From positions 4,521 through 68,520 of the forward strand of contig CBDAQI010000001.1 of assembly GCA_965198945.1 (NCBI GenBank): 64,000 nt of DNA, written 5' to 3'. Shown here one piece after another: positions 9,415-60,472 of the stretch (positions within the stretch are counted from its first letter, which is position 1; the number at the start of each line of letters is the position of its first letter). Both the position numbers and the translations under genes were made by a program. The stretch is from Thermodesulfobacteriota bacterium. Lineage in GTDB: Bacteria > Desulfobacterota_D > UBA1144 > Nemesobacterales > Mycalebacteriaceae. The notes below the pieces were generated by a model that was given only the letters and a program-made list of their open reading frames with translations, searched no databases and had not been told where the DNA came from.

Positions 9415-9843
9415 ATGAGCGCATTAAGACTTTGGGAGCCATTCAACATGTTCAGAGATTTTGACGACGCGCTTGAAAATTTCGGCGTGTTTCCCTCTGG
9501 CGCAGTTGAAAAGACTTTGAGTCCAAGGGCCGATGTCGCGGAAACGGACAAGGCATATGAAATAACTCTTGAAGTTTCGGGGGTGGAAGGGAAAGACCTG
9601 ACCCTTGAAGTTATGGGAGATGTCCTTACCGTGGGCGGCGAAAAAAAGTTTGAGGAAAAGAAGGAAGGGAAAAACTACTTAACGGTTGAAAGACACTATG
9701 GAAAATTTTCCCGCAGATTCAATCTTCCAGAAAACACGGACACAAAAGGCATTAAAGCCGACAGCAAAAACGGCATACTGACCATAACGGTTCCGAAAAC
9801 TCAGGTTGAAGAGCAAAAACCTCTGAAAATTGAGGTGAACTAG
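9415..9843 (+). CDS. Hsp20/alpha-crystallin family small heat-shock protein
   Basis: AGGAGG sits 8 nt before the ATG at 9415. 142 aa with an alpha-crystallin domain (...GILTITVPK...). The longer ORF starting at 9337 has no RBS. Confidence 0.9.
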   Translation: MSALRLWEPFNMFRDFDDALENFGVFPSGAVEKTLSPRADVAETDKAYEITLEVSGVEGKDLTLEVMGDVLTVGGEKKFEEKKEGKNYLTVERHYGKFSRRFNLPENTDTKGIKADSKNGILTITVPKTQVEEQKPLKIEVN

Positions 9844-17238: not shown

Positions 17239-18300
17239 ATGGCACAGACTATCAAATTCGGGCTTTCAGCACCCATGCCCGGAGCGGACGCCGCCGGACT
17301 CCTTGAATTTTCAAAAAAAGCGGACAAGCTCGGTTTTGACACTATCTGGTATCCGGACCACACGGTTTTTGTGGCTCCGGGAGCGACGGCGCCCGAGGCA
17401 TGGACAATAGCTTCGGCGGCGGCGGGAATTACATCAAACATACAGCTCGGAACGGTTTCAGATCCTCACAAAATATATCCCTCAACATTCGCCCAGCGGC
17501 TTGCCACAATTGACCATCTTTCCAAAGGAAGGGTTACAATCGCAATGGGAGTGGGCGAATCAATGAACCTTGACGCCTACGGCATTCCGTGGAACAAGCC
17601 TTTCACAAGAATGAAAGAAGCGGTTGAGGTTATGCAGTTGCTTTGGAAAAACGACGAGCACAGCCCTGTCAACTACAATGGCGAGTTCTTCAAGCTGCAG
17701 GACGCATTCTTGCAAATGCGGCCTTTTGAGCGCGACAGAATTCCCGTTTATTTCGCCACTCACACACCCAAGGGTCTTGCACTCACCGGGAAGGTTGGAG
17801 ACGGCTGGCTGCCTATTGATTTGAACCCGTCGCTTTACGAAAAATATCTGGGGGAAATACACTCGGCCGCAGACGGTGCCGGAAGAGACAGAGACGAGAT
17901 TGACCCCGCCCTGTGGGTTTTCACCTCACTTGGAGAAAATGATGATGAAGCATACAAAGCGATTGAGCCGTTCAAGTATGTGCTGATTATGCAGGAACAG
18001 TTGGAGGCGGCGGGTTACGATGTGAAAATTCCCGATGAATACAAGGGGCTGAACTACTTCAACATAGTCCCTCAAGACACTGAGGGCAGGGCAAAATTCC
18101 GCGAAATCGGGCGGTTTTTCCCGCGCGAGGCCATTATGGACTTCACAATCACCGGTTCAAAAGATGACTGCATAAAAAGGATTGAAAATTTTATAGACAA
18201 GGGCGTGAGAAATTTTGTGCTTTTCTACCGTTTCAGCCCCGACCCCGAAAAAGCGCTTGAAACCTACGCGAAGGAGATAATTCCTTATTTTAAAGGCTGA
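17239..18300 (+). CDS. LLM-class flavin/F420-dependent oxidoreductase (methylene-H4MPT reductase-like)
   Basis: 353 aa; ...GFDTIWYPDHT...MGVGESMN..., LLM family. Divergently transcribed from the other LLM gene. Confidence 0.85.
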   Translation: MAQTIKFGLSAPMPGADAAGLLEFSKKADKLGFDTIWYPDHTVFVAPGATAPEAWTIASAAAGITSNIQLGTVSDPHKIYPSTFAQRLATIDHLSKGRVTIAMGVGESMNLDAYGIPWNKPFTRMKEAVEVMQLLWKNDEHSPVNYNGEFFKLQDAFLQMRPFERDRIPVYFATHTPKGLALTGKVGDGWLPIDLNPSLYEKYLGEIHSAADGAGRDRDEIDPALWVFTSLGENDDEAYKAIEPFKYVLIMQEQLEAAGYDVKIPDEYKGLNYFNIVPQDTEGRAKFREIGRFFPREAIMDFTITGSKDDCIKRIENFIDKGVRNFVLFYRFSPDPEKALETYAKEIIPYFKG

Positions 18301-18714
18301 TTACCGTGAGAATGTGGTGATTCAATCCCGCCCTTTTGTGCAGAAAACACTTGCTCGGCGAGCATGTGGAGATGCATATGTTCGCCGGAACGATTAAAAA
18401 GGGAATAAGCACAAAAGGTTATGAAGAAACCGGACTTGTTGACCTGTCCAAAATCCGTATCCGACATGACAAAATAGCAAAAGAGATGCAGCGCAGGGGT
18501 ATGAATCACAAATCGCCCGACCCTATAGGATCAGGCGGATGGATTGACATAAAAGCGAATATGCAAAGTGTGCGCCGAACGGCAGAAGGATTTGCGTCAA
18601 GTTTGACGGGAAAATACAATAAAAGGGTTTGTGTTTATTCTACTTTCAACAAAACAAACAAATAGATAGCAAAACACTTTTTACTATCTATCTCTCACTT
18701 GAATAGATACTAAA

Positions 18715-19874
18715 TCGCCATTGTAGTATACATCTTGGAAATCAATATATAGCAATCGGAAAAACACTTCCCCAACCGGAGAGATATGGCGCATTTATAC
18801 CAGAAAGCGCATGTGATATTGAGTTTCAGTTTACACCTGAAACTGTAAAAAAAGCGCATGATACTGCTCTTGCAGTTGGCAAATTGGATGGAATCAGTCG
18901 GTTGCTGCCCGACATAGATTTTTTCCTTTTGATGTATATCCGCAAGGACGCCACCTCTTCAAGCAATATTGAGGGAACCAAAGCAACGCTGATTGAAAGC
19001 ATTGAGCAGGAAGCAAAGGTATCAAGTGAACTCCCCCGATGATGTTTCGGACATCACTTAGTATATAAAAGCGATGAACAAGGGTTTTGAAAACCTGGAG
19101 CAGATTCCAGTCAGCAATCGTTTCATACGGCTTCTACACAAGGAACTTATGGAGGGCGGAAGGGAGTCTCACTATTCGGACCCCGGAAACTTCCGCACCT
19201 CGCAGAACTGGATAGGAGGCAAATCTCTGCGGGAGGCAAGTTTTGTGCCGCCGCCACCGTCCGAAGTGCTGAGAGCAATGGGAGATCTGGAGAAATTCAT
19301 ACACAGGCGGGACAACATTCTGCCAATAATCAAGGCGGGAATTATCCACTCTCACTTTGAGACGATACATCCCTTTCTTGACGGAAACGGCAGAACGGGA
19401 AGGTTGCTGATAACCTTTTTCCTGAACAAGGAGGGTTTGCTGGAAAAACCCATTTTGTTTCTTTCCTCATTTTTTATAGAACACCGCCAATATTATTACG
19501 ACTGTTTAATATCGTATCATAATGGCGATTATACAAAGTGGATTGATTTCTTTTTGAACGGCGTTACCGAGACCGCAAATAAGTCAATAAAAACCGCAAA
19601 CAAAATCGTGGGAATACGCGAGCGGGATATGAAAAAGATTTCCGGCCTGTCAAAAAGAGCATCCCAAACGGCTTTGAAAATATATCCAAATCTTTTTGCA
19701 TTGCCGATTGTCAATACTACAAAAATAATGGAGTGGGGCGGTCTGACCCGCGCCGGAGCACAGAGTGTTGTGAACCGCTTCATTAAAATGGACATCCTAA
19801 AATCCAGAGACCCGGATAAAACCTACGGACGGTCTTATGTGTATGAGGAGTATTTGAGGGTTTTTGCGAATTGA
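18715..19874 (+). pseudogene. fic: Fic/Doc-family gene remnant: the N-terminal region is separated from the Fic core ORF by an in-frame stop and a frame discontinuity
   Basis: ORF 19074-19874 carries the Fic motif IHPFLDGNGRTGRLL. Upstream, without a start codon, frame A (18715-19032) encodes the Fic N-terminal signature ...LDGISRLLPDIDFFLLMYIRKDATSSSNIEGTKATLIESIEQEAKVSSELPR*. The next segment (PDDVSDIT-TAG-YIKAMNKGF...) has an in-frame TAG 15 nt before the ATG at 19074. Between the two segments the frame apparently changes at a C5 run. The sequence line covering 19021-19080 displayed only 5 ten-base blocks to me, so exact coordinates of the frame change there are uncertain by up to 10 nt. 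Confidence 0.6.
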
Positions 19875-20003
19875 AATACATTTATTGTGGGAAAGAAGAA
19901 AATGAAAGTAATTGAAGAAAATATATTGACTTGCAGAAGTTGCGGCTTAACCGACTGGCAAAGGCGTTTTATGGTAAAATCATTTTTCAACACGGGGAAT
20001 GTA

Positions 20004-20745
20004 TGGAAATGAATAAAGCATTAAGTCTTTTTCCAAACAGTTACAGGAGCAAAATAGAAATATCTCAAGGCAACTGTTTCTCTCTGATTCAAAAGATGGA
20101 AGACAACTGTGTTGACTTGATAGCAACAGACCCTCCTTATGAAATAAATTTTGAGGATAACTATTGGGACAAACCAAACACTCTGAACTGGGACTATTTG
20201 GCAAAAGAATTTAAAAGAGTTTTAAAACCCAATGGGGCTTTAATAATTTTTCAGGGTTGGTCTCAAGTCTGTGAAACCAAAGCAGTGTTGGACAAACATT
20301 TTCTTTTAAAAACTGGATTATTTATGACAGAATTAAGGGGAGAGGGGCAAAAACAAACGTAGTCTCAACCCGGGAAGACATCCTTTGGTATGTGGCAGAT
20401 GAAAAAGACTACACTTTTCACAAAATAGACTCCGCCATTAAGAAAAAAACGGGCGGAATGGGAAGAAAAAACGGCAGCATTTACAGAGCACTTTCAAACG
20501 TTTGGACTGACGTTCCTCCTTTAGTTCCGTGGGGAGAAGAAAAAGTTCCACACCCGACACAAAAACCCATTTTTATTATGAAACGAATAATAGAAATATT
20601 TTCCAACGAAAACGACCTTGTTTTAGACCCCTTCATAGGCAGTGGAACAACCGCTCTTGCATGCAAAGAAACAAACAGAAACTGTGTGGGTTTTGAATTA
20701 GACGAAAACTATTACCGACTTTGCCAGAAAAGATTCAATGATTGA
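20004..20745 (+). pseudogene. Beta-class DNA (N6-adenine/N4-cytosine) methyltransferase, DPPY motif; split by a 1-nt frame change
   Basis: ORF 19931-20362 has motif IV DLIATDPPYEI. ORF 20392-20745 has motif I LDPFIGSGTTALAC...GFELDENYY. The second frame is open back to 20275 and encodes SFKNWIIYDRIKGRGAKTNVVSTREDILWYVADEKDY..., the expected continuation. The frame change lies in the T/A runs at about 20298-20314. The likely start is the ATG at 20004 (MEMNKAL), downstream of an extended -10 TGgTAAAAT. Confidence 0.65.
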
Positions 20746-21004
20746 CAAGTTTAGAATAGGCATGACAAAATTACGAAAGAAATGTAGCGGCAGGGGGAAT
20801 GAAAAACAAATCCGCCGTTGGATAACGCCAAAGGCCTCTGGATTCAAATAAAAGCCGACTTGAAAGAGTTAAAACGTAGATCCAAGGATTGAGAGTTATA
20901 AAAACACGGATAAGTGTTGCATTGAAAGTTACTATACGGATATAATACAGAGTTGTTCAAGTCTTCTTAAGGAATTACCATTCTGATTCGCAGAGTCAGG
21001 AAGA

Positions 21005-22143
21005 ATGTTCAAAGAAATAACACTTCCTGTAGAGTCACTCTCAAACGCAGATAAAAACCTCGTCCAGCAGTTCAATCAGTACTTCAAAACTGATGACGTA
21101 AAGATTGTTCCTAACGGAAAATCCATTGAAGTCCAATTAAGGCAGGTTGACTTCTCTTTGATGGAGAAAGTTGTAGCCGACTTGACAGAATCAGCAAAAG
21201 ACAACAACCCGCTTACCATAACATTGGATGCCATAAGAAACATTAAAAGTTACAGTTTGAAGGGGAAAAAAAGGATTTATGTCGGCTATAACAAAGAAAG
21301 AAAAGTAAAAAACCGTGCCGAGAAGGAAAAACAAAGAGGTAAATATTTCTACGCAAAAGGGCATTCTTTCAAGAAAACAAACAACAAAGTGCCCAAGGAG
21401 TTTGTTGATAAAATTGTCTGCGGAGACAGTGAAAAAATTTTATCAGAAATTCCGGACAACTGCGTTGATATGGTATTGACTTCACCACCTTACAATTTTG
21501 GACTTAACTACAACAACAATAAAAATGACGAACACGACTGGAGAGAATATTTTGAAAAACTTTTTAAAGTTTTTGACCAGTGCGTAAGGGTTCTAAAATA
21601 TGGCGGAAGAATAATAGTTAATGTTCAACCGCTCTTTTCCGACTATATTCCAAGCCATCACATAATCAGTAAATACTTCATGGATAAAAAACTGATATGG
21701 AAGGGGGAAGTCATGTGGGAAAAGAATAACTACAACTGTAAATATACCGCCTGGGGAAGCTGGAAAAGTCCAAGCAATCCCTACCTGAAATACACATGGG
21801 AGTTTATAGAGATATTTTGCAAAGGAGATATGAAAAAGTCGGGAAACTCAAAAAATATAGATATTAGCGCTGACGAATTCAAAAAATGGGTCGTAGGCAA
21901 ATGGTCTGTCGCACCCGAACGTAAAATGAAGCAATATGGACATCCCGCCATGTTTCCCGAAGAAATAGCGAACCGCGCAATAAAACTGTTCAGTTTTAAA
22001 GGTGATTTAATACTTGATCCGTTCAATGGCGCGGGAACTACCACAACAGTTGCAAAAAAACTAGTCGTTCCTATCTGGGCGTAGATATTTCAAAAGATTA
22101 TTGTAAAACTGCAGAAAAAAGAGCAAGAGAGATTCTTTTATGA
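21005..22143 (+). pseudogene. Beta-class N4-cytosine/N6-adenine DNA methyltransferase (SPPY motif) with a ~130-aa N-terminal extension; C-terminus frameshifted at an A7 tract
   Basis: Motif IV VLTSPPYNFG and motif I LDPFNGAGTTTTVAKK. The ORF stops at 22084. An 8th A in the A7 run (22054-22060) would restore ...VAKKTSRSYLGVDISKDYCKTAEKRAREILL* ending at TGA 22141-22143, which is the canonical MTase C-terminus. Confidence 0.65.
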
Positions 22144-22808
22144 GTAAAGTGGGCTTCTCTCCTGAAGTTGAAAAAATCTTGGATGAAATCATAGAGGAAT
22201 ATGACCGCATTTTTCAAAATGTTCAGGGCAAAGCTCTGCAAGACTCAGAAAACAGGGCTTATGGTGGCGTAATCAGGTCTACAGTAGGCGGTTTCGTAGA
22301 ATGGATGACAAAACGCTTGGTTGTAGCTACATGGCTCACACTTGGCCAAAATCAAACTTCACTTAACTTCAAGAGCGGAAAATATAAACTCCCAATACTT
22401 CAACAATATGTTGACAATATAGAAATTCCAGAGGTTAAAAAACAAATCCAAGACAACATCGGCGACTACACCTACGGAATAGGACAAGATGTCCATGTTT
22501 ATGAAGAAGACGATTTTATTCTTTCAATTGAGTGCAAAGCGTATGCAGAAAACGCAATGCTAAAAAGAATCATTGTAGATTGCTGGTTTCTTCAAAAATT
22601 ATTTCCAACTTTGAAATTCGCTCTTATCCAACTGGAAAGCCAATTAACGGGAGATTATCACGAGTTAAATGAAATAACTTTTGGAAGCAAATCATCTCAT
22701 ACAATAATGTCTTATTTCGATGTTGATTTAAAGATAATAACACTGCTCAAGGGAGCGCGAAAAGTGAAAGAGCCAATACACAAATCAAGATTTTATAAAA
22801 CCTTATAA
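22140..22808 (+). CDS. Candidate type II restriction endonuclease (PD-(D/E)XK-like motif)
   Basis: The 222-aa ORF overlaps the restored MTase stop as ATGA. GIGQDVHVYEEDDFILSIECKAY fits a D...(D/E)xK nuclease core. Position and coupling match an R-M operon. There is no family-level recognition. Confidence 0.45.
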   Translation: MSKVGFSPEVEKILDEIIEEYDRIFQNVQGKALQDSENRAYGGVIRSTVGGFVEWMTKRLVVATWLTLGQNQTSLNFKSGKYKLPILQQYVDNIEIPEVKKQIQDNIGDYTYGIGQDVHVYEEDDFILSIECKAYAENAMLKRIIVDCWFLQKLFPTLKFALIQLESQLTGDYHELNEITFGSKSSHTIMSYFDVDLKIITLLKGARKVKEPIHKSRFYKTL

Positions 22809-22895
22809 AAGGATAGTTTGAAAAATGCAGTCAGGCAATTAACAGAATTAATTGAGTAGATTATTAATGTAAAACAATTTCTAACCGCTGATTGC

Positions 22896-23387
22896 TCACT
22901 CCCCTTCCAGCACAACAAGCACCGCGCCGCCTTCAACCGCGTCGCCTTCTTTTACTTTAATTTCTTTGATTTTTCCGGCCACGGACGCTTTTAATTCGCT
23001 TTCCATTTTCATCGCTTCAACAACAATCACACCCTCGTCGGTTTTGACCGAATCGCCTTCTTTTTTGAGTATTTTCACAACCCTGCTCGGCATCGGAGAG
23101 GAAATCTGCAAACCGCCGCCCTCTCCACCCGCAGACGATTCCCTTCCGGTGATTGATTCAAACTCATACAGTGTCCCTTCACAGAACACCTGAATTTTTT
23201 TGCCTTTTTTCACCACCCCGGCCGTAAAAGAGCCGTTCTTTTCGCAAACTATTGAAACAAGAGCGGGGTCAAGTCTTGCAAAGTCAACCTCTGAGGAAAA
23301 ATCGTCCGTCTCAACAACGGCGCGGCCGTCCTTATCTTCAATATTGACGCGAAACCTTTCATCACCGAGTTTAAGAATGTATTTCAC
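22896..23387 (-). CDS. Biotin carboxyl carrier protein (biotin/lipoyl attachment domain)
   Basis: C-terminal EAMKM biotinylation motif. The GTG at 23387 overlaps the accC stop as TAGTG; the longest ORF would start at the ATG at 23447. Confidence 0.8.
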   Translation of the reverse strand: MKYILKLGDERFRVNIEDKDGRAVVETDDFSSEVDFARLDPALVSIVCEKNGSFTAGVVKKGKKIQVFCEGTLYEFESITGRESSAGGEGGGLQISSPMPSRVVKILKKEGDSVKTDEGVIVVEAMKMESELKASVAGKIKEIKVKEGDAVEGGAVLVVLEGE

Positions 23388-24898
23388 TAGCCGCCACCCT
23401 CGTATCCGCCCCTTAAAACGCCCGCTCTGCGGGAAAAACTCTTCCAACCGGAAGCCGCCTTCAGTTTGCCGGTTTCCTGTTTCTCAACGGAACCCCCAAA
23501 ATGAAGCGCAAGAGCGGCGGCAACAGCCGCTTTTTGGCTGCCTTCCCGTCCGGCACTGAGGAGCTCCGGATGCCTGTCTATAAATCCCGTGTCTATTTCG
23601 GCTTTCATAAACTCCTCATTGCGCATAACGCGAATAAGGAAACCGATATTGGTTTTTGTGCCAAGAACCATGTATTCGCCAAGTGCGGCGGCCATTTTGT
23701 TTATCGCCTGTTCGCGCGTCTCAGCCCATACGGCAAGCTTTGAAAGCATCGGGTCATAAAACGATGTAACTTCGCAACCGCTGAAAATAGCCGAATCATC
23801 CCTGATACCGGGGCCGTCGGGCGTCTTCACATAATAAATCGGTCCGGGAGCCGGAAGAAAATTCATCTCCGGATCCTCGGCGTATATTCTGCATTCAACT
23901 GCATGACCGTTCAATTTTAGGTCTGACTGCTTGAACGGAAGTTTTTCACCGGCCGCTATCCTTATCATCCATTTTACGATGTCAAAACCCGTTACCATCT
24001 CAGTTACCGGATGCTCAACCTGTATGCGCGTGTTCATCTCAAGAAAATAGAAGTCCTGCTCCGCATCCATTATGAACTCAACGGTTCCGGCGCCCTTGTA
24101 TGAAACCGCTTTGGATATGTTCACGGCCACCTCGCCCATTTTTTTGCGCGTTGAGGCCGAAATAAATCCCGAAGGCGCCTCTTCTATAACCTTCTGGTGC
24201 CTGCGCTGAATTGAACATTCGCGCTCAAAAAGATGCAAAACATTGCCGTGTCCGTCCGCGATGATCTGAATTTCAATATGGCGAGGCTTTTGAACGAAAC
24301 GCTCTATGAAAACCGAATCGTCTCCAAAAGCCGAAAGCGCCTCGCTTTTTGCCATCCTGAGCGAGCTTTCAAACTCCGCCGGGTCGTGAACAAGGCGCAT
24401 TCCCTTTCCACCGCCGCCCGCAGACGCTTTTATCATAAGCGGATAGCCAATCTCTCCCGCCACATTCTTGGCCTCACTGTCGCTCACGGCCCCTTTGGAG
24501 CCCGGAACAAGCGGAACTTTGGCTTTTACGGCTATGTTTCTCGCGGTGATTTTGTCTCCCATCTGACTGATGGTTTCAGCCGAAGGCCCTATGAAAACTA
24601 TTCCCGCCTTCTCACACGCACGGGCAAAATCCTCTTTTTCGGAGAGAAAACCGAAACCGGGATGAACGGCTTCAGCGCCCGTTTTTTTACAGACGTCTAT
24701 TATTTTTTCAATAACAAGGTAGCTTTCAGCCGGTTTTGAGCCGCCTATATGAACGGCTTCATCGGCAAGAGCAACGTGCATTGCCCCTCTGTCGGCATCC
24801 GAGTAGACGGCAACCGTGGCGATTTTCATCTCACGGCAGGCTCTTATTATCCTTACCGCTATCTCACCTCTGTTTGCTACCAGTATTTTGCCGAACAT
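23387..24898 (-). CDS. accC: Biotin carboxylase subunit of an acyl-CoA carboxylase
   Basis: 503 aa; MFGKILVANRGEIAVRIIRA... ATP-grasp biotin carboxylase. Confidence 0.95.
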   Translation of the reverse strand: MFGKILVANRGEIAVRIIRACREMKIATVAVYSDADRGAMHVALADEAVHIGGSKPAESYLVIEKIIDVCKKTGAEAVHPGFGFLSEKEDFARACEKAGIVFIGPSAETISQMGDKITARNIAVKAKVPLVPGSKGAVSDSEAKNVAGEIGYPLMIKASAGGGGKGMRLVHDPAEFESSLRMAKSEALSAFGDDSVFIERFVQKPRHIEIQIIADGHGNVLHLFERECSIQRRHQKVIEEAPSGFISASTRKKMGEVAVNISKAVSYKGAGTVEFIMDAEQDFYFLEMNTRIQVEHPVTEMVTGFDIVKWMIRIAAGEKLPFKQSDLKLNGHAVECRIYAEDPEMNFLPAPGPIYYVKTPDGPGIRDDSAIFSGCEVTSFYDPMLSKLAVWAETREQAINKMAAALGEYMVLGTKTNIGFLIRVMRNEEFMKAEIDTGFIDRHPELLSAGREGSQKAAVAAALALHFGGSVEKQETGKLKAASGWKSFSRRAGVLRGGYEGGG

Positions 24899-26563: not shown

Positions 26564-26773
26564 TTATGACCAGACGAGCGAGAGGTCTCGTTGCGAAGAC
26601 ACGCAATCTTTCAGATACAGATTGATAAGACTTTGGTAGGGGATGCCCTTTTCTTCCGCAAGTTTCTTAAAATAGGCGACTGTATCCTCATCCAGACGGA
26701 TTGTAATTTGTTTCTTTAGCCGTTTGGCGTAATGGTTCTTTCTGGACTTTGAGAAATCGTAGTTTTTACGCAT
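26564..26773 (-). CDS. brnA: BrnA antitoxin (CopG/RHH-like, COG3514)
   Basis: MRKNYDFSKSRKNHYAKRLKKQITIRLDEDTVAYFKKLAEEKGIPYQSLINLYLKD. Overlaps the brnT stop by 8 nt. The longer ORF to 26890 is probably spurious. Confidence 0.7.
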   Translation of the reverse strand: MRKNYDFSKSRKNHYAKRLKKQITIRLDEDTVAYFKKLAEEKGIPYQSLINLYLKDCVSSQRDLSLVWS

Positions 26774-27062
26774 TGATATACTCCTCATACTGCTTTTTCT
26801 CCCGTGAGTTCGCCTTGCGGGCTGAAATAATGCGGATGGTGTTTCCGTTACTCTCGCAGTGACAAACCACGAGCAGACGCAATCTGTCACTCACTCCTAT
26901 CATAACAAAACTCTCCTCTCCTTTTTCAGAGTGGTCGGGGTCTCTGATGATTCGCGCAAACTCGTCATTAAAAACCGAGCGGGTTTTTTCAAAAGAAACA
27001 CGGTGTTTTTTCCTATTTGACACATTTTTCTTCGCATCCCACTCAAAGCTAATGCCTTGCAT
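26766..27062 (-). CDS. brnT: BrnT toxin (DUF497 ribonuclease, COG2929)
   Basis: 98 aa; MQGISFEWDAKKNVSNRKKHRVSFEKTRSVFNDEF...VMIGVSDRLRLLVVCHCESNGNTIRIISARKA, a BrnT signature. Confidence 0.75.
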   Translation of the reverse strand: MQGISFEWDAKKNVSNRKKHRVSFEKTRSVFNDEFARIIRDPDHSEKGEESFVMIGVSDRLRLLVVCHCESNGNTIRIISARKANSREKKQYEEYINA

Positions 27063-27162: not shown

Positions 27163-27903
27163 TCAGGGATTATTGGTTTGCATCAGTCGGGGCTTTTGCT
27201 CCCGAAACCAGTTGTAAAAGCGTTCCGCATCCGAAAACAGCGGCGGATTTGCGCTCCGTTGAAGATAACCATTTTTGACACGAAGTCCGCCCCATTTCTC
27301 CAAAAGCGGTTTTGTGACGCGGTAGGAGTGTTTTCTGAATTCGCCGATTGGTATGTATTTGGCGAGGCGGCCGGACTTTTCCCGCTTACCCCTTACAACA
27401 ATGTCTGTCGGCTCCGGCGGAGAGTTGCGTGTGTGGGCGTTTTCATCCCATCTTGACTGCGGAATATTATCCGCACGAACAATTTCTTTCACAGTCAGCA
27501 AACCGATGAGTGCGTAGACGAGTTTGTCGTCCGTTACGGATTTAAGTCCCGCAAAGAAAACTACCATATCGTTTTCTTCAAAAGTCTGAAGATATTTGCC
27601 TCTTTTTTCCGTGTCGCCGTAGGTAAGGTTTTCAAAATCGGGATCAAGGTGCATACACTCGTCGGCCAGATTTCCGGGAAGGAAAACTTCGCAACCGTTG
27701 CGCTCTGAAAAACCCGCGAGCGCGGGAACTATCGTATCAGCGTAGCATTTTTCCATTCCGGCAACATTGGCGACCTTTGTCTGCTTTATAGGCACATAGA
27801 CGAAGTCGCCCGTCTCAGGATTGCACGGAGCGTTCCAGTTGCCCGAACTTGCGGTTTGGTCAATTCCGACACGGATCAGTATTGCTTTCATTCCGGCTGA
27901 CAC
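27163..27903 (-). CDS. Hypothetical protein, paralog B of an uncharacterised Cys-containing pair
   Basis: 246 aa. Shares ILIRVGID...GNWNAPCNPETGDFVYVPI and ...GLKSV...KLVYALIGLLTVKEIV blocks with the adjacent upstream protein. Confidence 0.55.
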   Translation of the reverse strand: MSAGMKAILIRVGIDQTASSGNWNAPCNPETGDFVYVPIKQTKVANVAGMEKCYADTIVPALAGFSERNGCEVFLPGNLADECMHLDPDFENLTYGDTEKRGKYLQTFEENDMVVFFAGLKSVTDDKLVYALIGLLTVKEIVRADNIPQSRWDENAHTRNSPPEPTDIVVRGKREKSGRLAKYIPIGEFRKHSYRVTKPLLEKWGGLRVKNGYLQRSANPPLFSDAERFYNWFREQKPRLMQTNNP

Positions 27904-28535
27904 TGCATTACGGCATTGTCTTCCGCTTCGTTACACTTTTTGCTCTTTTCCAAATGAATTGGGTTGCCGTGCCTGCCGCAGCCGTATTCTTTCAATATGC
28001 ACTCTATGTATTTTTTCAGTTTTTGATAATTCTCCGCCTTATTCTGATGTGAGCGTGTCAATTTTTCGTAAATATCCCCTATTTTCTCTATTTGAGTTTT
28101 TTTATTGCTATCGCCAAAATACGCGAAGCAATTACTGACAAGACAAAATGCCCTGTTGTATTCTTCTGGTTCACCCAGATCGGTTTCAAGTTTTTCTGCG
28201 GAATGATACTGAGCGTTATTTCTGAATTTATATTTTTTACCTGTCCATTCATAAATACAGTCAGGGCGATTCCAATACTCGCTTCCCGATGAATAGTAAT
28301 CCTTTCCACTAATAACTTTCTCAACCCGCATAACATAAATCAAGCGGTCTTTTAATTCTGCTACGGACTTGCCGCCCACTCCAATAATCCAATTACCCTT
28401 TTCTGCTGTTGTGCGTATTTTGGGTTTGCAAATGCACAGCGAAATCAACCCATCTTCAACACAAGGCGCACCGCCGTTATCGCAAGTCAATTTATAAATA
28501 AAAATTTTCGATTCTATCGTGTCCATTGTTCCCAC
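27888..28535 (-). CDS. Hypothetical Cys-rich protein, paralog A of an uncharacterised pair
   Basis: 215 aa; KIFIYKLTCDNGGAPCVEDGLISLCICKP...GGKSVAELKDRLIYVMRVEKVI. The C-terminal half is AT-rich and Lys-rich. Overlaps the coaE stop; an alternative start is at 28526. Confidence 0.55.
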   Translation of the reverse strand: MGTMDTIESKIFIYKLTCDNGGAPCVEDGLISLCICKPKIRTTAEKGNWIIGVGGKSVAELKDRLIYVMRVEKVISGKDYYSSGSEYWNRPDCIYEWTGKKYKFRNNAQYHSAEKLETDLGEPEEYNRAFCLVSNCFAYFGDSNKKTQIEKIGDIYEKLTRSHQNKAENYQKLKKYIECILKEYGCGRHGNPIHLEKSKKCNEAEDNAVMQCQPE

Positions 28536-56763: not shown

Positions 56764-57155
56764 CTTGAAACATAGAAGGCGCAGCGCAACTCTTTGAACG
56801 ACACGGAAACCGCTGAAAATACTGCCGCCATGCTCACAAAATGACGAAATCAGCGGAGAGGCGCAAAAAACTTCACAATGAAAAGGGGTGAGCTCTTTGG
56901 GGCGGTCGGAGCAGAAATATGGTTTTCAAATATACTGAAATCGGAGACCTGACATAATTGGATAGAAACCACTGTCGTATTGGGCAAAGGCGGCTTTGAA
57001 CCTCCGCATCACATATGAAGCAGAGGTTAAAGAGCTACTGAGCTCATACTCAATGACCGCAAAATTTGGTATTAATCTGTGAAAGCGTCTTTTTAAGAAA
57101 CCGTGTAGACAGACCGAGCAATGAGGTTTCAAAGCATGACGCGCCGCAACCGGCC

Positions 57156-57189
57156 TTACAACAGGCCGTTTTCAACAAAGCTGTAGTGG
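57156..57189 (-). repeat. Copy A of a ~35-bp direct repeat (equals the last 10 codons plus stop of radC)
   Basis: acaaca-gg-CCGTTTTCAACAAAGCTGTAGTGG (24/24 core) matches 59723-59754. On the minus strand it encodes HYSFVENGLL* as at the real radC end. Confidence 0.7.
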
Positions 57190-57305
57190 CCATGCCGATA
57201 TCTTCAACGGTGTGATGGAAATCAACCTCGGCGTCGCCGTCAACGTTCAAATCAACGCTGACTTTAACTTCATTGGTTTTTCTCTCAAAACTCGCTTTTC
57301 TTTCC
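57190..57305 (-). pseudogene. Partial duplicate of the hisB 5' coding region (two blocks with an internal deletion; start codon lost)
   Basis: 57190-57236 matches hisB 54702-54748 with 3 mismatches. 57236-57302 is identical to hisB 54850-54916 (67/67). Sequence diverges exactly at the start-codon position. Confidence 0.7.
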
Positions 57306-57704
57306 GGAGGTATTGCCAGAAAACTTAACGGAATTGTGGGGATAGGGCAATAACGCTGGAACCTCTAAAACCTATTTTCTGTAATTCCGTATTTGACATA
57401 CAGACTCGCTCCTTATTACCGTTTTAGGGTGGAACCGAGTTGCCAAATCTCTGTGAATGCAAAAATCCACGGAAAATAAAAGGAGGTTTAGATAAACAAC
57501 AATGGCTTCATACTATGGCGTTTTTTATTTGTATATCAGTTATGACAGTTTCACTTATTGGAATATATTCACTTCTGTTTAGGGTTCATCAATGGATAAT
57601 AAACTGTTTCAAATGCTTTAAGGATATTTTGAACCTAAGAATATTAATAGTTCTGTACGTTGCTAATTTATACGAATTTCTAAAACAAAAAAGCTACAAG
57701 GTCT

Positions 57705-59075
57705 TCACATTTTATAAATTAGCATGAAACCATTGAATTGAACTGCTTCAGATACTGACTCATTTACTTCCGTATCTTTATCATAGTAGTTAAACTGATG
57801 GTATGGTGATTCCAAATCAGTTTTCATCCAATGAAGTTTTTTGTTGTCAGTTCCAATTTTTTCAAAGTAATTTTTGGCATATTGCGGAAGAACGGCGCCA
57901 TCAGAGTGGATCATCAATGTTGGTTTTTTGAGGTCTGCGGCCGTTGACATAGGATCCGCCGTTAACCAATCTTCCCAGGAGATTACGGCAAATTCTTTAT
58001 TACTCCACTCCGGTACTGCACCACGATCAGAGTTGAGATAATAGTCATAAGGACCGTACATTGCGGCAGAGGGATCTTCGGTAGAAATAGTCGGGATATA
58101 TTGAACTAGACCGTTTTCAGCATAATCTCTTTTTGCTTTTTTGGCCGCACTCAATTTTTCATTTACTCCTTCTTCTCCGCCGTAAAAGAGTTTAACGGCT
58201 TCGGCGTCATGAAGCCAAGCGGCAACTGTAACAACCGATTGGATTCTATTATCTTCTGCGGTTGCCATAAGAGTATACATCCCACCTGCGCAAACCCCGA
58301 AGGCTCCAATCCTTGAATCATCTACCTCAGATACGGTTTCTAAGAAAGAAACGGCATTTTTAATGTCTTCCTTTTTAAGACTCGGACTCTCATAATATCT
58401 CGGTTCTCCTTCACTTTCCCCATAATTCCTGAAGTCGAAAGCTAGCGTAATGAAGCCTTCGTTGGCAAGTTTTTCTGCATATAAACCCGCCATTTGTTCT
58501 TTTACCGTAGTCCAACTGCCCGACACTACAATAGCGGGATATTTTCTTGACTTGTCAAAGTTAGGGGGAAAAAACATATTGCCTACAAGATTAGCGCCTT
58601 CGCTATTAAAATTGATTTTCTTCATTTGTATATGTTTATCCTCCATTTTTATTTTATTCAGCAAACCAAAACCACGTGCAGCCACTATGGGATTGAATAT
58701 TTCAACATACTCGGTAATCAAACCCTGATCATTGAATTTGAAAGTTGAATAGTATTGATTCTCATATAGTCGTGCGCTATTCTTTAACCTGATTTTACCT
58801 TTATATTTAACGTAAACAATATTAGGATCTTCCATGGCATAAATTTCTTCAATTGGGAACTCCATTCCATCAAAATTGGAAAAGACGGGCGCCCAATAAT
58901 TTCGTATTTCCTCTCTGCCAACTGCGCCGCCGGAAAATATCCCCGATGCGTAAGGATTGATTTGTTCAGCATTATGGGCGAATAGAGATGCCAAAACCTC
59001 CACATTTTCACTTTCCAACGCCTTGAAAAACTTTTTGGCCGTTTCTTTATTTTTAATCGATTTGTCTTTATTCAT
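57705..59075 (-). CDS. Fusion protein: N-terminal SnoaL/NTF2-like domain plus C-terminal alpha/beta hydrolase (dienelactone-hydrolase-like)
   Basis: 456 aa, low-GC gene. The C-terminal region has alpha/beta-hydrolase features (GVCAGG nucleophile-elbow-like; ...HSDGA...). Confidence 0.65.
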   Translation of the reverse strand: MNKDKSIKNKETAKKFFKALESENVEVLASLFAHNAEQINPYASGIFSGGAVGREEIRNYWAPVFSNFDGMEFPIEEIYAMEDPNIVYVKYKGKIRLKNSARLYENQYYSTFKFNDQGLITEYVEIFNPIVAARGFGLLNKIKMEDKHIQMKKINFNSEGANLVGNMFFPPNFDKSRKYPAIVVSGSWTTVKEQMAGLYAEKLANEGFITLAFDFRNYGESEGEPRYYESPSLKKEDIKNAVSFLETVSEVDDSRIGAFGVCAGGMYTLMATAEDNRIQSVVTVAAWLHDAEAVKLFYGGEEGVNEKLSAAKKAKRDYAENGLVQYIPTISTEDPSAAMYGPYDYYLNSDRGAVPEWSNKEFAVISWEDWLTADPMSTAADLKKPTLMIHSDGAVLPQYAKNYFEKIGTDNKKLHWMKTDLESPYHQFNYYDKDTEVNESVSEAVQFNGFMLIYKM

Positions 59076-59117
59076 ATGGATTTCTATTTTAAAATTTTCT
59101 GATTCTTTTTGTCGCCT

Positions 59118-59585
59118 CTATTCTGAGTTGAGCAATCTCTTTATTGCCTTCTCCGATAGTAATGTATTTCCATGCTGATATTTGAAATTAAATTTCATTG
59201 ATGAAATTTTCCAATTATCCGAACCATCTTTTATCAAATCAAAGTCGTAAGTTCCGACCACTACCCATAGGCTGGCTTCATTATCTTTTAAATGGTGACT
59301 TGCCGTTCCATAACACGACAAATATGCAGCATCCCCTCGGTAGGAGACCTGGAAATTACCTAATTGGTGGTGGGTGGCATCAAAACCGGGAAGAATACCC
59401 TTCCATGAGGCGATAATTTGTTTGGCTGACATTTTAGCTGCTGGTCTACCATTCATGGATGAATAGTCTAAACTAACTTTTGAGTTAAACGACTTTTCTA
59501 CAACATCCCAATCACGATTATCCGTGGCTACAAACATATTAATAACCACATCTTTGGGCGATTTCGTGTTCCGTGCATTATTCAT
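59118..59585 (-). CDS. SnoaL-like/NTF2-family protein
   Basis: 155 aa, low GC, NTF2-like cone-fold sequence pattern. Confidence 0.6.
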   Translation of the reverse strand: MNNARNTKSPKDVVINMFVATDNRDWDVVEKSFNSKVSLDYSSMNGRPAAKMSAKQIIASWKGILPGFDATHHQLGNFQVSYRGDAAYLSCYGTASHHLKDNEASLWVVVGTYDFDLIKDGSDNWKISSMKFNFKYQHGNTLLSEKAIKRLLNSE

Positions 59586-59720
59586 ATGAACTAAAAATCT
59601 GCAAATCCACTCTTTAAGCGACTGTTTTCTACTTTCAGATGTTTCAATAAATTGTTGAAAAATTCTCCGGGGTTTACGGGCTTTTTTTCCAAACTCAAAT
59701 CACAGAGATTAACAACATTC

Positions 59721-60074
59721 TCACAACAACCCGTTTTCAACAAAGCTGTAGTGGTCGTTGGAACAGACACTTATATGGTCAACAAGCCGTATGTCAAGTG
59801 ATTTGCAGATTCGGGCAAGTTCTTCGGTTATTTCTTTGTCGCTCTCAGACGGCTGAGGGTGGCCGCTCGGATGGTTGTGAACGACAATGATTCCCGAGCA
59901 TTTTTTCAGATCAATAGCCTTTTTCACCACATCTCTTATGTTCATACTGACGCTTCCGACCGAGCCTTCCGACACAACCTCGTGCTTGAGAAACTGGTTT
60001 TTTGTGTTGACAAAAACCAGAACCATAAACTCCCTGCTTTCCCTGCCTATTCTTGATTTGCAAAAATCTATCAC
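59721..60074 (-). CDS. radC: RadC-family JAB/MPN domain protein (C-terminal half of RadC)
   Basis: 117 aa with the JAMM motif ...IIVVHNHPSGHPQPSESD.... Its last 35 nt are copy B of the direct repeat. Confidence 0.85.
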   Translation of the reverse strand: MIDFCKSRIGRESREFMVLVFVNTKNQFLKHEVVSEGSVGSVSMNIRDVVKKAIDLKKCSGIIVVHNHPSGHPQPSESDKEITEELARICKSLDIRLVDHISVCSNDHYSFVENGLL

Positions 60075-60412
60075 CGACCGGGGGAAGTGAGGTAGTCTCC
60101 GGACTCAATTTTTGTCTCCATATAACGCCAGTTCATTTCTTTTATCAGGGTTATGAAAGCGGCCGTGATATCTCCTATGCCCGCAACTTTTGTCAACTCA
60201 TCGGCGGGAGCGTCCATAACGGCTGACAATGAACCGAATCTGGCAAGCAGATTTTTTGCCGCCGGTTTCACATCCCCGCGCGGCACGGAATAAGTAAGGA
60301 GCAGTTCCAGAGCCTCGTAGTCGGCAAACGAGACAAGCCCCTCAGTGAGAAACCTGTTTCTGAGACGTTTTCTGTGACCCGCGTAGTGAGGAATTTCCCT
60401 TTCGCCGCTCAT
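60071..60412 (-). CDS. RadC N-terminal (helix-hairpin-helix) domain ORF, overlapping the JAB ORF as ATGA
   Basis: 113 aa; ...YEALELLLTY...AKNLLARFGSL..., the RadC N-terminal region. Standard RadC has both halves in one polypeptide. Confidence 0.65.
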   Translation of the reverse strand: MSGEREIPHYAGHRKRLRNRFLTEGLVSFADYEALELLLTYSVPRGDVKPAAKNLLARFGSLSAVMDAPADELTKVAGIGDITAAFITLIKEMNWRYMETKIESGDYLTSPGR

Positions 60413-60472
60413 CGGGCGGTAGTTTAACTTCAGTGTGTGGAAAAAAAACTATTTTTCCGTAACACTTGTGAG

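What the first reader, a model, noticed from the sequence alone, without database searches (positions are those of the whole stretch)
18660..22870. Low-GC island carrying a degraded fic gene and a two-methyltransferase restriction-modification module
Between the LLM oxidoreductase gene (ends 18300) and the BCCP gene (ends 22896) the composition drops well below the ~50% GC of the flanks. All four genes there are classic mobile or defence cargo: a Fic/Doc protein, a DPPY beta-class MTase, an SPPY beta-class MTase with a 130-aa N-terminal extension, and a 222-aa protein with a D...ECK (PD-(D/E)XK-like) core that is ATGA-coupled to the second MTase. No integrase, transposase or tRNA lies at the borders, so the insertion mechanism is not evident. 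Two MTases with one nuclease suggests either a system recognising an asymmetric site or one orphan MTase.
Basis: partly seen in the sequence, partly recalled or inferred. Interest (0 to 1): 0.6.

Follow-up and report, generated by a model that had tools for sequence, protein, structure and literature searches.

The report
Decayed restriction-modification relics in a defence hotspot
This low-GC stretch is one allele of a variable defence-gene hotspot in a small-genome Dadabacteria lineage. It is a patchwork of two restriction-modification systems and a Fic gene in which every gene is broken, so it is an ordinary gene graveyard, not a working two-methylase system.

Summary
The low-GC island is real: GC 0.39 against 0.48 for the rest of the window (z -4.8), tetranucleotide z 7.7. 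The gene families were named correctly.

All six coding remnants carry disabling lesions:
- Pyr_excise: nonsense codon plus a 20-nt deletion.
- Fic: start region deleted, +1 frameshift, TAG.
- DPPY methylase M1: -1 frameshift.
- SPPY methylase M2: -1 frameshift in an A7 run.
- The 222-aa nuclease: AAA->TAA, which removes its last helix.
- A SIR2-like gene: only its last 30 bp remain.

The two methylases belong to different systems. M2 plus the nuclease is a self-contained two-gene cassette found in unrelated contexts. In relatives, M1 has its own 188-aa nuclease partner, which is cut off here.

Related Dadabacteria genomes carry different cargo at the same site: this cassette, McrBC, Fic, a SIR2-like gene, or a Bpu10I-type nuclease. 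One genome has an empty site with 8 bp between the Pyr_excise and BCCP stop codons.

The window allele is a mosaic. It is joined inside Pyr_excise codon 53, which gives a ~130-bp direct duplication. No integrase, transposase or tRNA is nearby. Recombination between hotspot alleles explains it best.

dN/dS of 0.04-0.18 says the inactivation is recent. Sequencing error cannot be fully excluded for the two methylase frameshifts.

Verdict: ordinary, a new member of a known kind.

The parts
17239..18300 (+). Left conserved flank: luciferase-like monooxygenase (LLM) gene
   Evidence: PF00296, E 1.9e-57. 90-92% aa identity to L001, L006-L008 and L046.
18306..18665 (+). Pyr_excise pseudogene, copy A. 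This is a backbone gene of the subclade: intact and ATGA-coupled to LLM in L001, L008 and L046. Lesions: GGA->TGA at 18318-20 (codon 5), a 20-nt deletion at 18560/18561 that shifts the frame, and about 12 nt of smaller deletions.
   Evidence: PF03013, E 1.1e-9. DNA alignment to L001. tblastn covers aa 1-99.
18754..19874 (+). Fic pseudogene (Fic_N + Fic, active-site motif HPFLDGNGRTGR). The start region is deleted (14+6 nt near 18745-54). One extra C in the C5 run 19033-37 shifts the frame. CAG->TAG at 19059-61.
   Evidence: Pfam and NCBIfam. Alignment to the intact 381-aa L006 orthologue: 80% aa, 77% nt.
20003..20745 (+). M1: beta-class DPPY DNA methyltransferase pseudogene. One T is missing from the run 20299-20302 (T4 here, T5 in the orthologue), which splits the gene into two ORFs.
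   Evidence: PF01555 hits on both halves. The restored 247-aa protein is 73% identical over 99% of its length to intact P0121. Two tblastn segments fall in different frames. DNA alignment to L042.
20736..20758 (+). Possible remnant of the first ~8 codons of M1's partner nuclease (MIDKFRIG against MSDEFKQG in L043). It ends at the recombination junction 20758/20759.
   Evidence: Sequence comparison only. This is weak evidence. No other trace of the 188-aa gene is in the window.
20759..20887 (+). Pyr_excise 3' fragment, copy B (codons 53-98, with stops and a frameshift). It forms a direct repeat with 18465-18600.
   Evidence: The blastn match to L001 runs colinearly from Pyr_excise codon 53 into M2. 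Repeat families D2 and D4 have spacing 2296-2299. Alignment. tblastn E 6e-8.
20888..21004 (+). Native Pyr_excise-to-M2 spacer, colinear with L001, L046 and L061
21005..22143 (+). M2: beta-class SPPY DNA methyltransferase pseudogene with a conserved N-terminal extension. One base is missing at the A7 run 22054-60. This gives a premature TAG at 22082-84 and removes the segment after motif I. Restoring one A recovers ...AKKTSRSYLGVDISKDYCKTAEKRAREILL*, whose stop overlaps the nuclease ATG.
   Evidence: PF01555, E 1e-31. PADLOC MTase_II, E 5e-66. Alignment to L001 M2. 85% identity to P0242 up to the frameshift.
22140..22859 (+). R: type II restriction endonuclease pseudogene (PD-(D/E)XK; D117, E131, K133). 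AAA->TAA at 22806-08 ends the ORF at 222 aa. The remaining 17 codons (KDSLKNAVRQLTELIE*) are still readable in frame.
   Evidence: PADLOC REase_II PDLC03499, E 1.2e-68. 495 homologues of 233-245 aa. Alignments. The P0002 model (pLDDT 95) has helix 224-238. Best fold matches are BbvCI, Bse634I and SgrAI.
22866..22895 (+). Last ~30 bp of a SIR2-like gene that is intact in L001 (365 aa). The rest, about 1.07 kb, is deleted here.
   Evidence: blastn: window 22866-... matches L001 9791-..., and the L001 ORF 8723-9820 ends at 9820. SIR2 hits for the L001 protein are weak (PADLOC E 2.8e-7; Pfam SIR2_2 below its cut-off).
22896..23447 (-). Right conserved flank: biotin carboxyl carrier protein gene, followed by the biotin carboxylase and carboxyltransferase genes
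   Evidence: PF00364. 76-84% aa identity to relatives.

Best explanation
The stretch is one allele of an integrase-less variable defence hotspot. The hotspot lies between the convergent 3' ends of a Pyr_excise gene and the BCCP gene in a subclade of Candidatus Dadabacteria, close to Ca. Mycalebacterium, with genomes of about 1.4-1.5 Mb.

This allele is a mosaic of two cargo sets:
- Left part: Pyr_excise, Fic and M1. It comes from an allele of the L042/L006 type, in which M1 is followed by its own small nuclease and then McrBC.
- Right part: Pyr_excise codon 53 onward, M2, the 240-aa nuclease and a SIR2-like gene. It comes from an allele of the L001 type.

The two parts are joined at 20758/20759. 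The junction falls about 8 codons into M1's partner nuclease and at codon 53 of the resident Pyr_excise. This left a ~130-bp direct duplication and an orphan M1.

Inferred mechanism: homologous pairing in the shared LLM/Pyr_excise flank plus one illegitimate joint. This is homology-facilitated illegitimate recombination, the same outcome as 'insertion with long target duplication'. No recombinase gene is needed.

When intact, M2+R worked as a standard type II system. The methylase and nuclease are translationally coupled through an ATGA overlap. M2 is probably an N4-cytosine methylase, judging from its SPPY motif. R is presumably a homodimeric PD-(D/E)XK nuclease with a BbvCI/Bse634I-like fold. 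The recognition site is unknown.

In this genome nothing works. Every gene has at least one disabling lesion, and the SIR2-like gene is deleted. The lesions are recent.

Shown: the lesions, the mosaic, the hotspot and the empty site. Inferred: the recombination route, the base specificity, and that loss of the nuclease's last helix inactivates it.
For: Lesions, each defined against an intact orthologue.

Hotspot alleles:
- L001: Pyr_excise, M2, R, SIR2-like.
- L006: Fic, McrB, McrC. L008: Pyr_excise, a different Fic, McrBC. L007: decayed fragments.
- L042: Fic 3' end, M1, nuclease-like ORF, McrBC, BCCP.
- L061: M2 plus a Bpu10I-family nuclease.
- L046: empty site with 8 bp between the stop codons.

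In all subclade alleles the interval has GC 0.36-0.42 against flanks of 0.51-0.53. More distant Dadabacteria have ordinary-GC genes there.

The M2+R cassette occurs alone in unrelated contexts, L002-L005.

Junction and duplication. SIR2-like remnant.

Recent inactivation:
- dN/dS is 0.057 for M2, 0.18 for R, 0.04-0.09 for Fic and 0.04 for Pyr_excise. Housekeeping genes give 0.05-0.09.
- There is no excess of amino-acid change on the window branch: R 9 against 7; M2 13 against 14 after removing the mis-framed tail.
- All 28 invariant nuclease residues are retained.

Frameshifts are not a general feature of this assembly. There are 576 homopolymers of 5 or more bases outside the island, including T10, T9 and 13 runs of 8 or more. 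They lie in a sequence tiled by long ORFs with no obvious split genes. Inside the island, 3 of 52 runs carry a frameshift.

Literature: R-M genes insert with long target duplications and substitute for one another at one locus (Furuta et al. 2010, PMC2853133).
Against: - All three 1-nt frameshifts (C5, T4, A7) sit in homopolymers. Several related genomes look like long-read MAGs, and the sequencing platform of this window is unknown.
- For M1 and M2 the frameshift is the only lesion, so an assembly error would make them intact.
- The nuclease has only one lesion, 17 codons from its end. Whether the truncated protein is inactive is not known.
- The duplicated Pyr_excise copies are only about 60-80% identical. 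Their origin therefore cannot be rooted (donor against resident).
- The putative 8-codon nuclease remnant is weak evidence.
- The R core is 92-95% identical to L001 while the flanks are about 80-83%. The history therefore includes further exchange that the simple two-parent model does not capture.
Confidence: 0.75

Rival explanations
1. The R-M module is still functional. The single-base frameshifts in M2 (and M1) are homopolymer sequencing or assembly errors, and the nuclease lacking its last 17 residues is still active. On this view only Fic and Pyr_excise are dead.
For: - The M1 and M2 lesions are single-base length changes in T4 and A7 runs.
- dN/dS is as low as for housekeeping genes, and there is no excess change on the window branch.
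- All invariant nuclease residues are retained.
Against: - 55 runs of 7 or more bases and 13 runs of 8 or more lie outside the island with no visible frameshift in long ORFs.
- The neighbouring lesions cannot be homopolymer errors: three nonsense substitutions, a 20-nt deletion, a 14+6-nt deletion and a 1.07-kb deletion.
- The lost helix 224-238 is predicted with high confidence, and L238 is nearly invariant.
- Other subclade alleles are also decaying: L007, and Pyr_excise in L061.
Confidence: 0.12
2. One reading: a single recently inserted island carrying one R-M system with two methylases and one nuclease, which recognises an asymmetric site.
For: - A DPPY methylase and an SPPY methylase lie on the same strand upstream of one nuclease gene.
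- The nuclease's best fold match is BbvCI, an enzyme for an asymmetric site.
Against: - M1 is absent from all five other M2+R loci.
- M1 has its own nuclease-like partner in L042-L045.
- A Pyr_excise fragment and a recombination junction separate M1 from M2.
- The pieces are shared with relatives at about 77-85% nt identity, similar to the flanks, so the island is not recent.
- There is only one nuclease gene, whereas BbvCI and Bpu10I need two subunits. That point rests on established knowledge, not on a test here.
Confidence: 0.03
3. Phase variation. The A7 run in M2 is a slippery tract that switches the methylase (and, through lost coupling, the nuclease) on and off, and the window caught the OFF state.
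For: - The frameshift lies exactly in an A7 run that is A5-G-A in L001, so the tract lengthened in this lineage.
- The lesion is young.
Against: - A7-A8 is short for a contingency tract.
- The nuclease is independently truncated, and every neighbouring gene is dead.
- No population data are available.
- The tract is not conserved in orthologues.
Confidence: 0.05

Closest known systems
Type II restriction-modification systems with a beta-class (PF01555) N4/N6 methyltransferase and a PD-(D/E)XK endonuclease. The structural neighbours of the nuclease are BbvCI, Bse634I/Cfr10I and SgrAI.
   Same: - Two-gene M-then-R cassette with an ATGA overlap in orthologues.
- Motif order: IV (SPPY), then TRD, then motif I (DPFNGAGTT).
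- The nuclease has a D...ECK catalytic core.
- The cassette is low-GC and mobile between unrelated genomes.
   Different: - Both genes are broken here.
- The nuclease family has no Pfam, NCBIfam or PDB sequence match. It is recognised only by a PADLOC/REBASE-derived model.
- The methylase carries a conserved ~135-aa N-terminal domain with no fold match.
- The recognition site is unknown.
Bpu10I/BbvCI restriction endonuclease family (PF09549)
   Same: - BbvCI subunits are the best fold match (probability 1.0, TM 0.45-0.5).
- In L061, a methylase about 85% identical to window M2 is paired with a genuine PF09549 nuclease at the same locus.
- The ECK(A/T)Y...ML motif aligns between the two nuclease families.
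   Different: - There is no Pfam hit even at E 10, and hhalign probability is only 7.7%.
- There is a single nuclease gene rather than two subunits.
- The methylase is beta-class with SPPY, unlike the C5 methylases of BbvCI/Bpu10I. That point is from memory.
R-M 'insertion with long target duplication' and allelic substitution of R-M genes (Furuta, Abe, Kobayashi 2010, PMC2853133)
   Same: - The insert is flanked by a long (~130 bp) direct duplication of sequence that is single-copy in related genomes.
- No mobility genes are present.
- The insert is low-GC.
- Different R-M or defence genes substitute for each other at one locus.
   Different: - The insert carries Fic and a methylase, but at most 8 codons of the nuclease.
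- The repeats are only about 60-80% identical, against over 90% in the published cases.
- The duplication is better explained by recombination between two alleles that both carried Pyr_excise.
Defence islands and chromosomal defence hotspots between conserved core genes
   Same: - Conserved flanks with variable cargo: type II R-M, McrBC, SIR2-like, Fic.
- An empty site exists in one relative.
- The compositional deviation is consistent across alleles.
   Different: - The hotspot is restricted to one small-genome Dadabacteria subclade.
- No integrase or tRNA is present.
- Several alleles, including this one, are decaying rather than active.

Membership tests
Type II R-M system (M2 + R) | Methyltransferase with AdoMet motif I (FxGxG) and catalytic motif IV ((D/N/S)PP(Y/F)) | tested here: met
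   TSPPYNFG and DPFNGAGTT are present. PF01555 E 1e-31. PADLOC MTase_II E 5e-66.
Type II R-M system (M2 + R) | Adjacent endonuclease with a nuclease catalytic core | tested here: met
   PADLOC REase_II E 1.2e-68. D117/E131/K133 are invariant. Fold matches to BbvCI, Bse634I and SgrAI.
Type II R-M system (M2 + R) | Both genes intact and expressible | tested here: not met
   M2 has a -1 frameshift at 22054-60 and stops at 22082-84. R has a TAA at 22806-08, 17 codons early.
Type II R-M system (M2 + R) | Sequence-specific methylation and cleavage | not testable with these tools
   REBASE is not available. k-mer avoidance analysis did not single out a site.
Beta-class N6/N4 DNA methyltransferase | Motif IV lies N-terminal of motif I, with the target-recognition region between them | tested here: met
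   M1: DPPY at about residue 45 and DPFIGSGTT at about residue 207. M2: SPPY at about residue 160 and DPFNGAGTT at about residue 338.
Two-methylase R-M system for an asymmetric site | Both methylases co-occur with the nuclease in related systems | tested here: not met
   M1 is absent from L001-L005 and L061. M1 is paired with a different nuclease-like ORF in L042-L045.
Fic/Doc family | Fic domain with the HxFx(D/E)GNGRxxR motif | tested here: met
   HPFLDGNGRTGR is present. PF02661 E 2.6e-21 and Fic_N E 2.8e-10.
Fic/Doc family | Intact reading frame | tested here: not met
   Start region deleted, +1 in the C5 run 19033-37, TAG at 19059-61, all relative to the intact L006 orthologue.
Pyr_excise (PF03013, T4 endonuclease V-like glycosylase) | Pfam match above the gathering score, with an intact N-terminus | tested here: not met
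   The Pfam score of 39 bits exceeds the cut-off of 23. But codon 5 is TGA and a 20-nt deletion shifts the frame.
Chromosomal defence hotspot | Conserved flanks, different cargo in related genomes, and an empty site | tested here: met
   L001, L006, L007, L008, L042 and L061 carry different cargo. L046 is empty, with 8 bp between the stop codons.
Insertion with long target duplication (criteria of PMC2853133) | Insert contains both R and M homologues | tested here: not met
   The insert has Fic and M1. At most 8 codons of the partner nuclease remain.
Insertion with long target duplication (criteria of PMC2853133) | Insert under 20 kb, flanked by a direct duplication over 30 bp that is single-copy in the comparison genome | tested here: met
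   The insert is about 2.2 kb. 18465-18600 and 20759-20887 both align to one Pyr_excise segment of L001 and L046.
Bpu10I restriction endonuclease family (PF09549) | Sequence match to the family profile | tested here: not met
   No Pfam hit for P0002 at E up to 10. hhalign probability is 7.7%. Only the fold is similar.
Phase-variable methyltransferase | Repeat tract within the ORF whose length varies within the population | tested here: inconclusive
   An A7 run sits at the frameshift. No read or population data are available, and the tract is absent in orthologues.

The most novel reading that the evidence does not exclude
The hotspot exchanges cargo between co-existing Dadabacteria lineages without any recombinase. 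On this reading it uses the shared LLM/Pyr_excise and BCCP flanks as homology arms, and incoming R-M systems are 'disarmed' on entry or on exit.

Three observations fit:
- M1's nuclease is cut off exactly at the junction.
- The R240 nuclease is truncated while its sequence is otherwise pristine.
- In L061, a methylase about 85% identical to window M2 is paired with an unrelated-by-sequence Bpu10I-type nuclease.

That would make this a natural series showing how a methylase is kept while nucleases are swapped or shed. It would also identify an uncharacterised single-gene relative of BbvCI/Bpu10I (about 500 members; no Pfam model, no solved structure).
Probability: 0.2. Interest if true: 0.4.

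Novelty: new member of a known kind. Interest (0 to 1): 0.25.

Why it matters
It matters mainly as a correction. A stretch that reads like a working two-methylase R-M island is a set of pseudogenes from two different systems. Annotating it as active defence, or inferring an asymmetric recognition site from it, would be wrong.

It also gives a compact, well-resolved example of gain, swapping and decay of defence genes at one integrase-free hotspot. The example comes from an uncultured, small-genome lineage and includes an empty site and a defined recombination junction.

Two minor leads follow. First, the 240-aa nuclease family has no Pfam model and no solved structure, and it has a BbvCI-like fold. 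Second, closely related methylases (about 85% identical) are paired with two different nucleases in sister genomes.

Tried and rejected
- **Recognition site from k-mer avoidance.** TCGA, GTAC, CTAG, GATC and GGCC are strongly depleted in the whole subclade, whether or not the cassette is present. CTNAG-type sites are only mildly depleted. No assignment was possible.
- **Sequence search of the nuclease.** PDB, Pfam and NCBIfam gave nothing.
- **N-terminal extension of M2.** The model has pLDDT 86: a small alpha/beta fold plus a conserved basic stretch. The best PDB fold hit has E 0.05 (Pcc1-like), which is not significant. There is no HTH, so a C-protein-like regulator role is not supported.
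- **Rooting the two Pyr_excise copies** as donor or resident. The sequences are too short and too diverged.
- **Exact-protein look-ups** of the window's nuclease and LLM, to find the source contig or a sister strain. Neither is on record.
- **tRNA, Rfam and promoter/terminator scans.** Nothing informative.
- **TGA as a sense codon.** Rejected: the flanking LLM gene ends in TGA, and the orthologue has GGA at the Pyr_excise position.
- **My first reconstruction of the M1 frameshift** placed it in the A5 run. Comparison with L042 moved it to the T-run at 20299-20302.

Full report
**Observation**

The compositional drop is real. Window 18301-22895 has GC 0.3915 against 0.479 for the rest. No other 4.6-kb window falls below 0.432, so z = -4.8. 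Its tetranucleotide profile is the most deviant in the window, z = 7.7. The flanks are a luciferase-like monooxygenase gene ending at 18300 and, on the minus strand, BCCP, biotin carboxylase and carboxyltransferase genes starting at 22896. No tRNA lies nearer than 51.6 kb. There is no Rfam match, and no integrase or transposase domain in the neighbouring genes.

**What is encoded**

All features are on the plus strand:
- Fic (Fic_N + Fic) at about 18754-19874.
- A DPPY beta-class methyltransferase, M1, at 20003-20745.
- An SPPY beta-class methyltransferase, M2, at 21005-22143. It has an N-terminal extension that is conserved across thousands of homologues.
- A 222-aa ORF at 22140-22808.

The 222-aa ORF matches a PADLOC type II restriction enzyme model at E 1.2e-68. 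It belongs to a family of about 500 proteins of 233-245 aa. D117, E131, C132 and K133 are invariant in that family. A model of the intact homologue P0002 has pLDDT 95. Its best structural matches are the type II enzymes BbvCI, Bse634I and SgrAI. The family has no Pfam, NCBIfam or PDB sequence match.

**Every gene is broken**

Each lesion was defined against an intact orthologue from a related genome.
- **Pyr_excise:** GGA->TGA at codon 5 (18318-20), a 20-nt deletion at 18560/61 and about 12 nt of smaller deletions, relative to L001.
- **Fic:** the start region is lost (14+6 nt), there is an extra C in the C5 run 19033-37, and CAG->TAG at 19059-61, relative to the intact 381-aa L006 gene.
- **M1:** one T is missing from the run 20299-302, relative to L042. 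The restored 247-aa protein is 73% identical over 99% of its length to the intact Dadabacteria protein P0121.
- **M2:** one base is missing at the A7 run 22054-60, which gives a stop at 22082-84. Adding one A restores ...AKKTSRSYLGVDISKDYCKTAEKRAREILL*, colinear with orthologues. Only then does the ATGA overlap with the nuclease start exist.
- **Nuclease:** AAA->TAA at 22806-08. The next 17 codons still read KDSLKNAVRQLTELIE* and match homologue C-termini. They correspond to the confidently predicted helix 224-238.
- **SIR2-like gene:** 22866-22895 is the last 30 bp of a 365-aa SIR2-like gene that is intact in L001. About 1.07 kb has been deleted.

**Are the frameshifts real?**

All three 1-nt frameshifts lie in homopolymers, so sequencing error must be considered. 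Against it, the rest of the window holds 576 homopolymers of 5 or more bases, 55 of 7 or more and 13 of 8 or more, up to T10. That sequence is tiled by long ORFs with no visible split genes. Inside the island, 3 of 52 such runs carry a frameshift. The neighbouring nonsense substitutions and multi-base deletions cannot be homopolymer errors. I rate the methylase frameshifts as real at about 85%. Error is not excluded, because the frameshift is the only lesion in each methylase.

**Two systems, not one**

M2 plus the 240-aa nuclease occurs as a two-gene, ATGA-coupled unit in five other loci, four of them in unrelated neighbourhoods. None of them has M1 (L001-L005).

In L042-L045 the M1 orthologue is preceded by the 3' end of a Fic gene that is 87-89% identical to window 19824-19876. 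It is followed by an overlapping 179-188-aa ORF with a weak type II nuclease match (E 5e-8), and then by McrB, McrC and BCCP.

In the window, that partner is absent except perhaps for its first 8 codons (20736-20758). This last point is weak evidence.

**The locus is a hotspot**

The organism belongs to Candidatus Dadabacteria. The nearest genomes have about 91-92% LLM identity and are 1.4-1.5 Mb. One neighbour is annotated Ca. Mycalebacterium.

In this subclade the same interval holds different cargo in each genome:
- L001: Pyr_excise, M2, R, SIR2-like.
- L006: Fic, McrB, McrC.
- L008: Pyr_excise, a different Fic, McrBC, an aspartyl protease.
- L007: Fic fragments and a McrC tail.
- L042: Fic, M1, nuclease-like ORF, McrBC.
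- L061: an internally deleted Pyr_excise, M2 (85% aa identity), and a genuine Bpu10I-family nuclease (PF09549, E 9e-27).
- L046: nothing. Intact Pyr_excise and BCCP are separated by 8 bp.

The occupied intervals have GC 0.36-0.42 against flanks of 0.51-0.53. More distant Dadabacteria (about 70% LLM identity) have ordinary-GC genes there.

But the empty site and the allelic diversity show that the region is accessory.

**Mosaic and junction**

Against L001, homology runs from the left flank to 18560. It then restarts at 20759, in Pyr_excise codon 53, and continues colinearly through the spacer, M2 and R. The window therefore has a full Pyr_excise (copy A) and a second 3' fragment (copy B, 20759-20887; tblastn E 6e-8). 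Together they form a ~130-bp direct repeat around Fic-M1.

The simplest route is recombination between two alleles. An L042-type allele (LLM, Pyr_excise, Fic, M1, nuclease...) and an L001-type allele (LLM, Pyr_excise, M2, R, SIR2-like) paired in the shared left flank. One illegitimate joint formed at 20758/20759.

This gives the same outcome as the 'insertion with long target duplication' described for R-M genes. It also fits the allelic substitution of R-M genes reported in that paper (PMC2853133). One of that paper's criteria, that both R and M lie in the insert, is not met. This route is inferred, not shown. The two copies are too short and too diverged to root.

**Age of the lesions**

- dN/dS against orthologues is 0.057 for M2, 0.18 for R, 0.04-0.09 for Fic and 0.04 for Pyr_excise. 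Housekeeping genes give 0.05-0.09.
- A relative-rate test with outgroups shows no excess change on the window branch. R gives 9 against 7. M2 gives 13 against 14 once my mis-framed tail is discounted.
- All 28 invariant nuclease residues are retained.

The genes were therefore under selection for nearly all of their history and died recently.

The nuclease core is 92-95% identical to L001 at the DNA level, whereas the flanks are about 80-83%. This suggests that part of the cassette was exchanged between lineages after they split.

For an R-M pair, the nuclease has to fail no later than the methylase. That predicts that loss of helix 224-238 inactivates it. This is inference.

**What led nowhere**

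- The recognition site could not be inferred. Several 4-bp palindromes (TCGA, GTAC, CTAG, GATC, GGCC) are strongly avoided in the whole subclade regardless of cargo.
- The M2 N-terminal domain has no significant fold match and no HTH.

**Verdict**

This is a decayed, mosaic allele of a defence hotspot. That makes it a new member of a known kind, of modest interest.

Noticed in passing
whole window outside 18301-22895; also L001, L006-L008, L042: Host DNA strongly avoids several 4-bp palindromes: TCGA 15 observed against 121 expected, GTAC 13/75, CTAG 6/31, GATC 69/165, GGCC 166/272. The same holds in the close subclade but not in more distant Dadabacteria (L009, L011, L016, L020). This suggests long exposure of this lineage to many 4-cutter R-M systems.
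   Followed up: partly
L061 685-2662 (Ca. Mycalebacterium sp. contig): At the same locus, a methylase 85% identical to window M2 is paired with a Bpu10I-family nuclease (282 aa, PF09549) instead of the 240-aa nuclease. This is a nuclease swap next to closely related methylases (about 85% identical). The two nucleases share only an ECK(A/T)Y...ML motif and a BbvCI-like fold.
   Followed up: partly
window 26564-27062 (-): A BrnT-like toxin ORF (98 aa, FEWD...KHRVSF) and an overlapping RHH/BrnA-like antitoxin ORF. The segment 26555-27164 is absent from L061. The genes were identified by eye only; no HMM was run.
   Followed up: no
window 27163-28535 (-): Nmad3 (PF18754) and Nmad2 (PF18753) 'nucleotide modification associated' genes lie between the carboxyltransferase gene and coaE. 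The Nmad2 segment (27886-28519, GC about 0.39) is missing in L061. This is a second small variable spot.
   Followed up: partly
L007 11400-12720; L061 545-680: Other subclade alleles are also decaying. L007 has a frameshifted Fic and only the tail of McrC. L061 has Pyr_excise reduced to its first 5 codons fused to its 3' end.
   Followed up: partly
window 21005-21409 (M2 residues 1-135): The N-terminal extension of the M2 family is a small alpha/beta domain followed by an invariant basic stretch (R90, E98, K100, R104, K107, R111, Y116). It has no significant PDB fold match, and its function is unknown.
   Followed up: yes
window 22400-22770 against L001: The nuclease core is 92-95% identical to L001 at the DNA level (pS 0.27). 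M2 and the housekeeping flanks are about 80-85% identical (pS 0.5-0.6). This points to a more recent exchange of this part of the cassette.
   Followed up: partly
window 57000-60450: A second low-GC stretch (about 0.39) encodes SnoaL-domain and alpha/beta-hydrolase proteins and several short minus-strand ORFs (59118-60448). It was not checked for pseudogenes.
   Followed up: no
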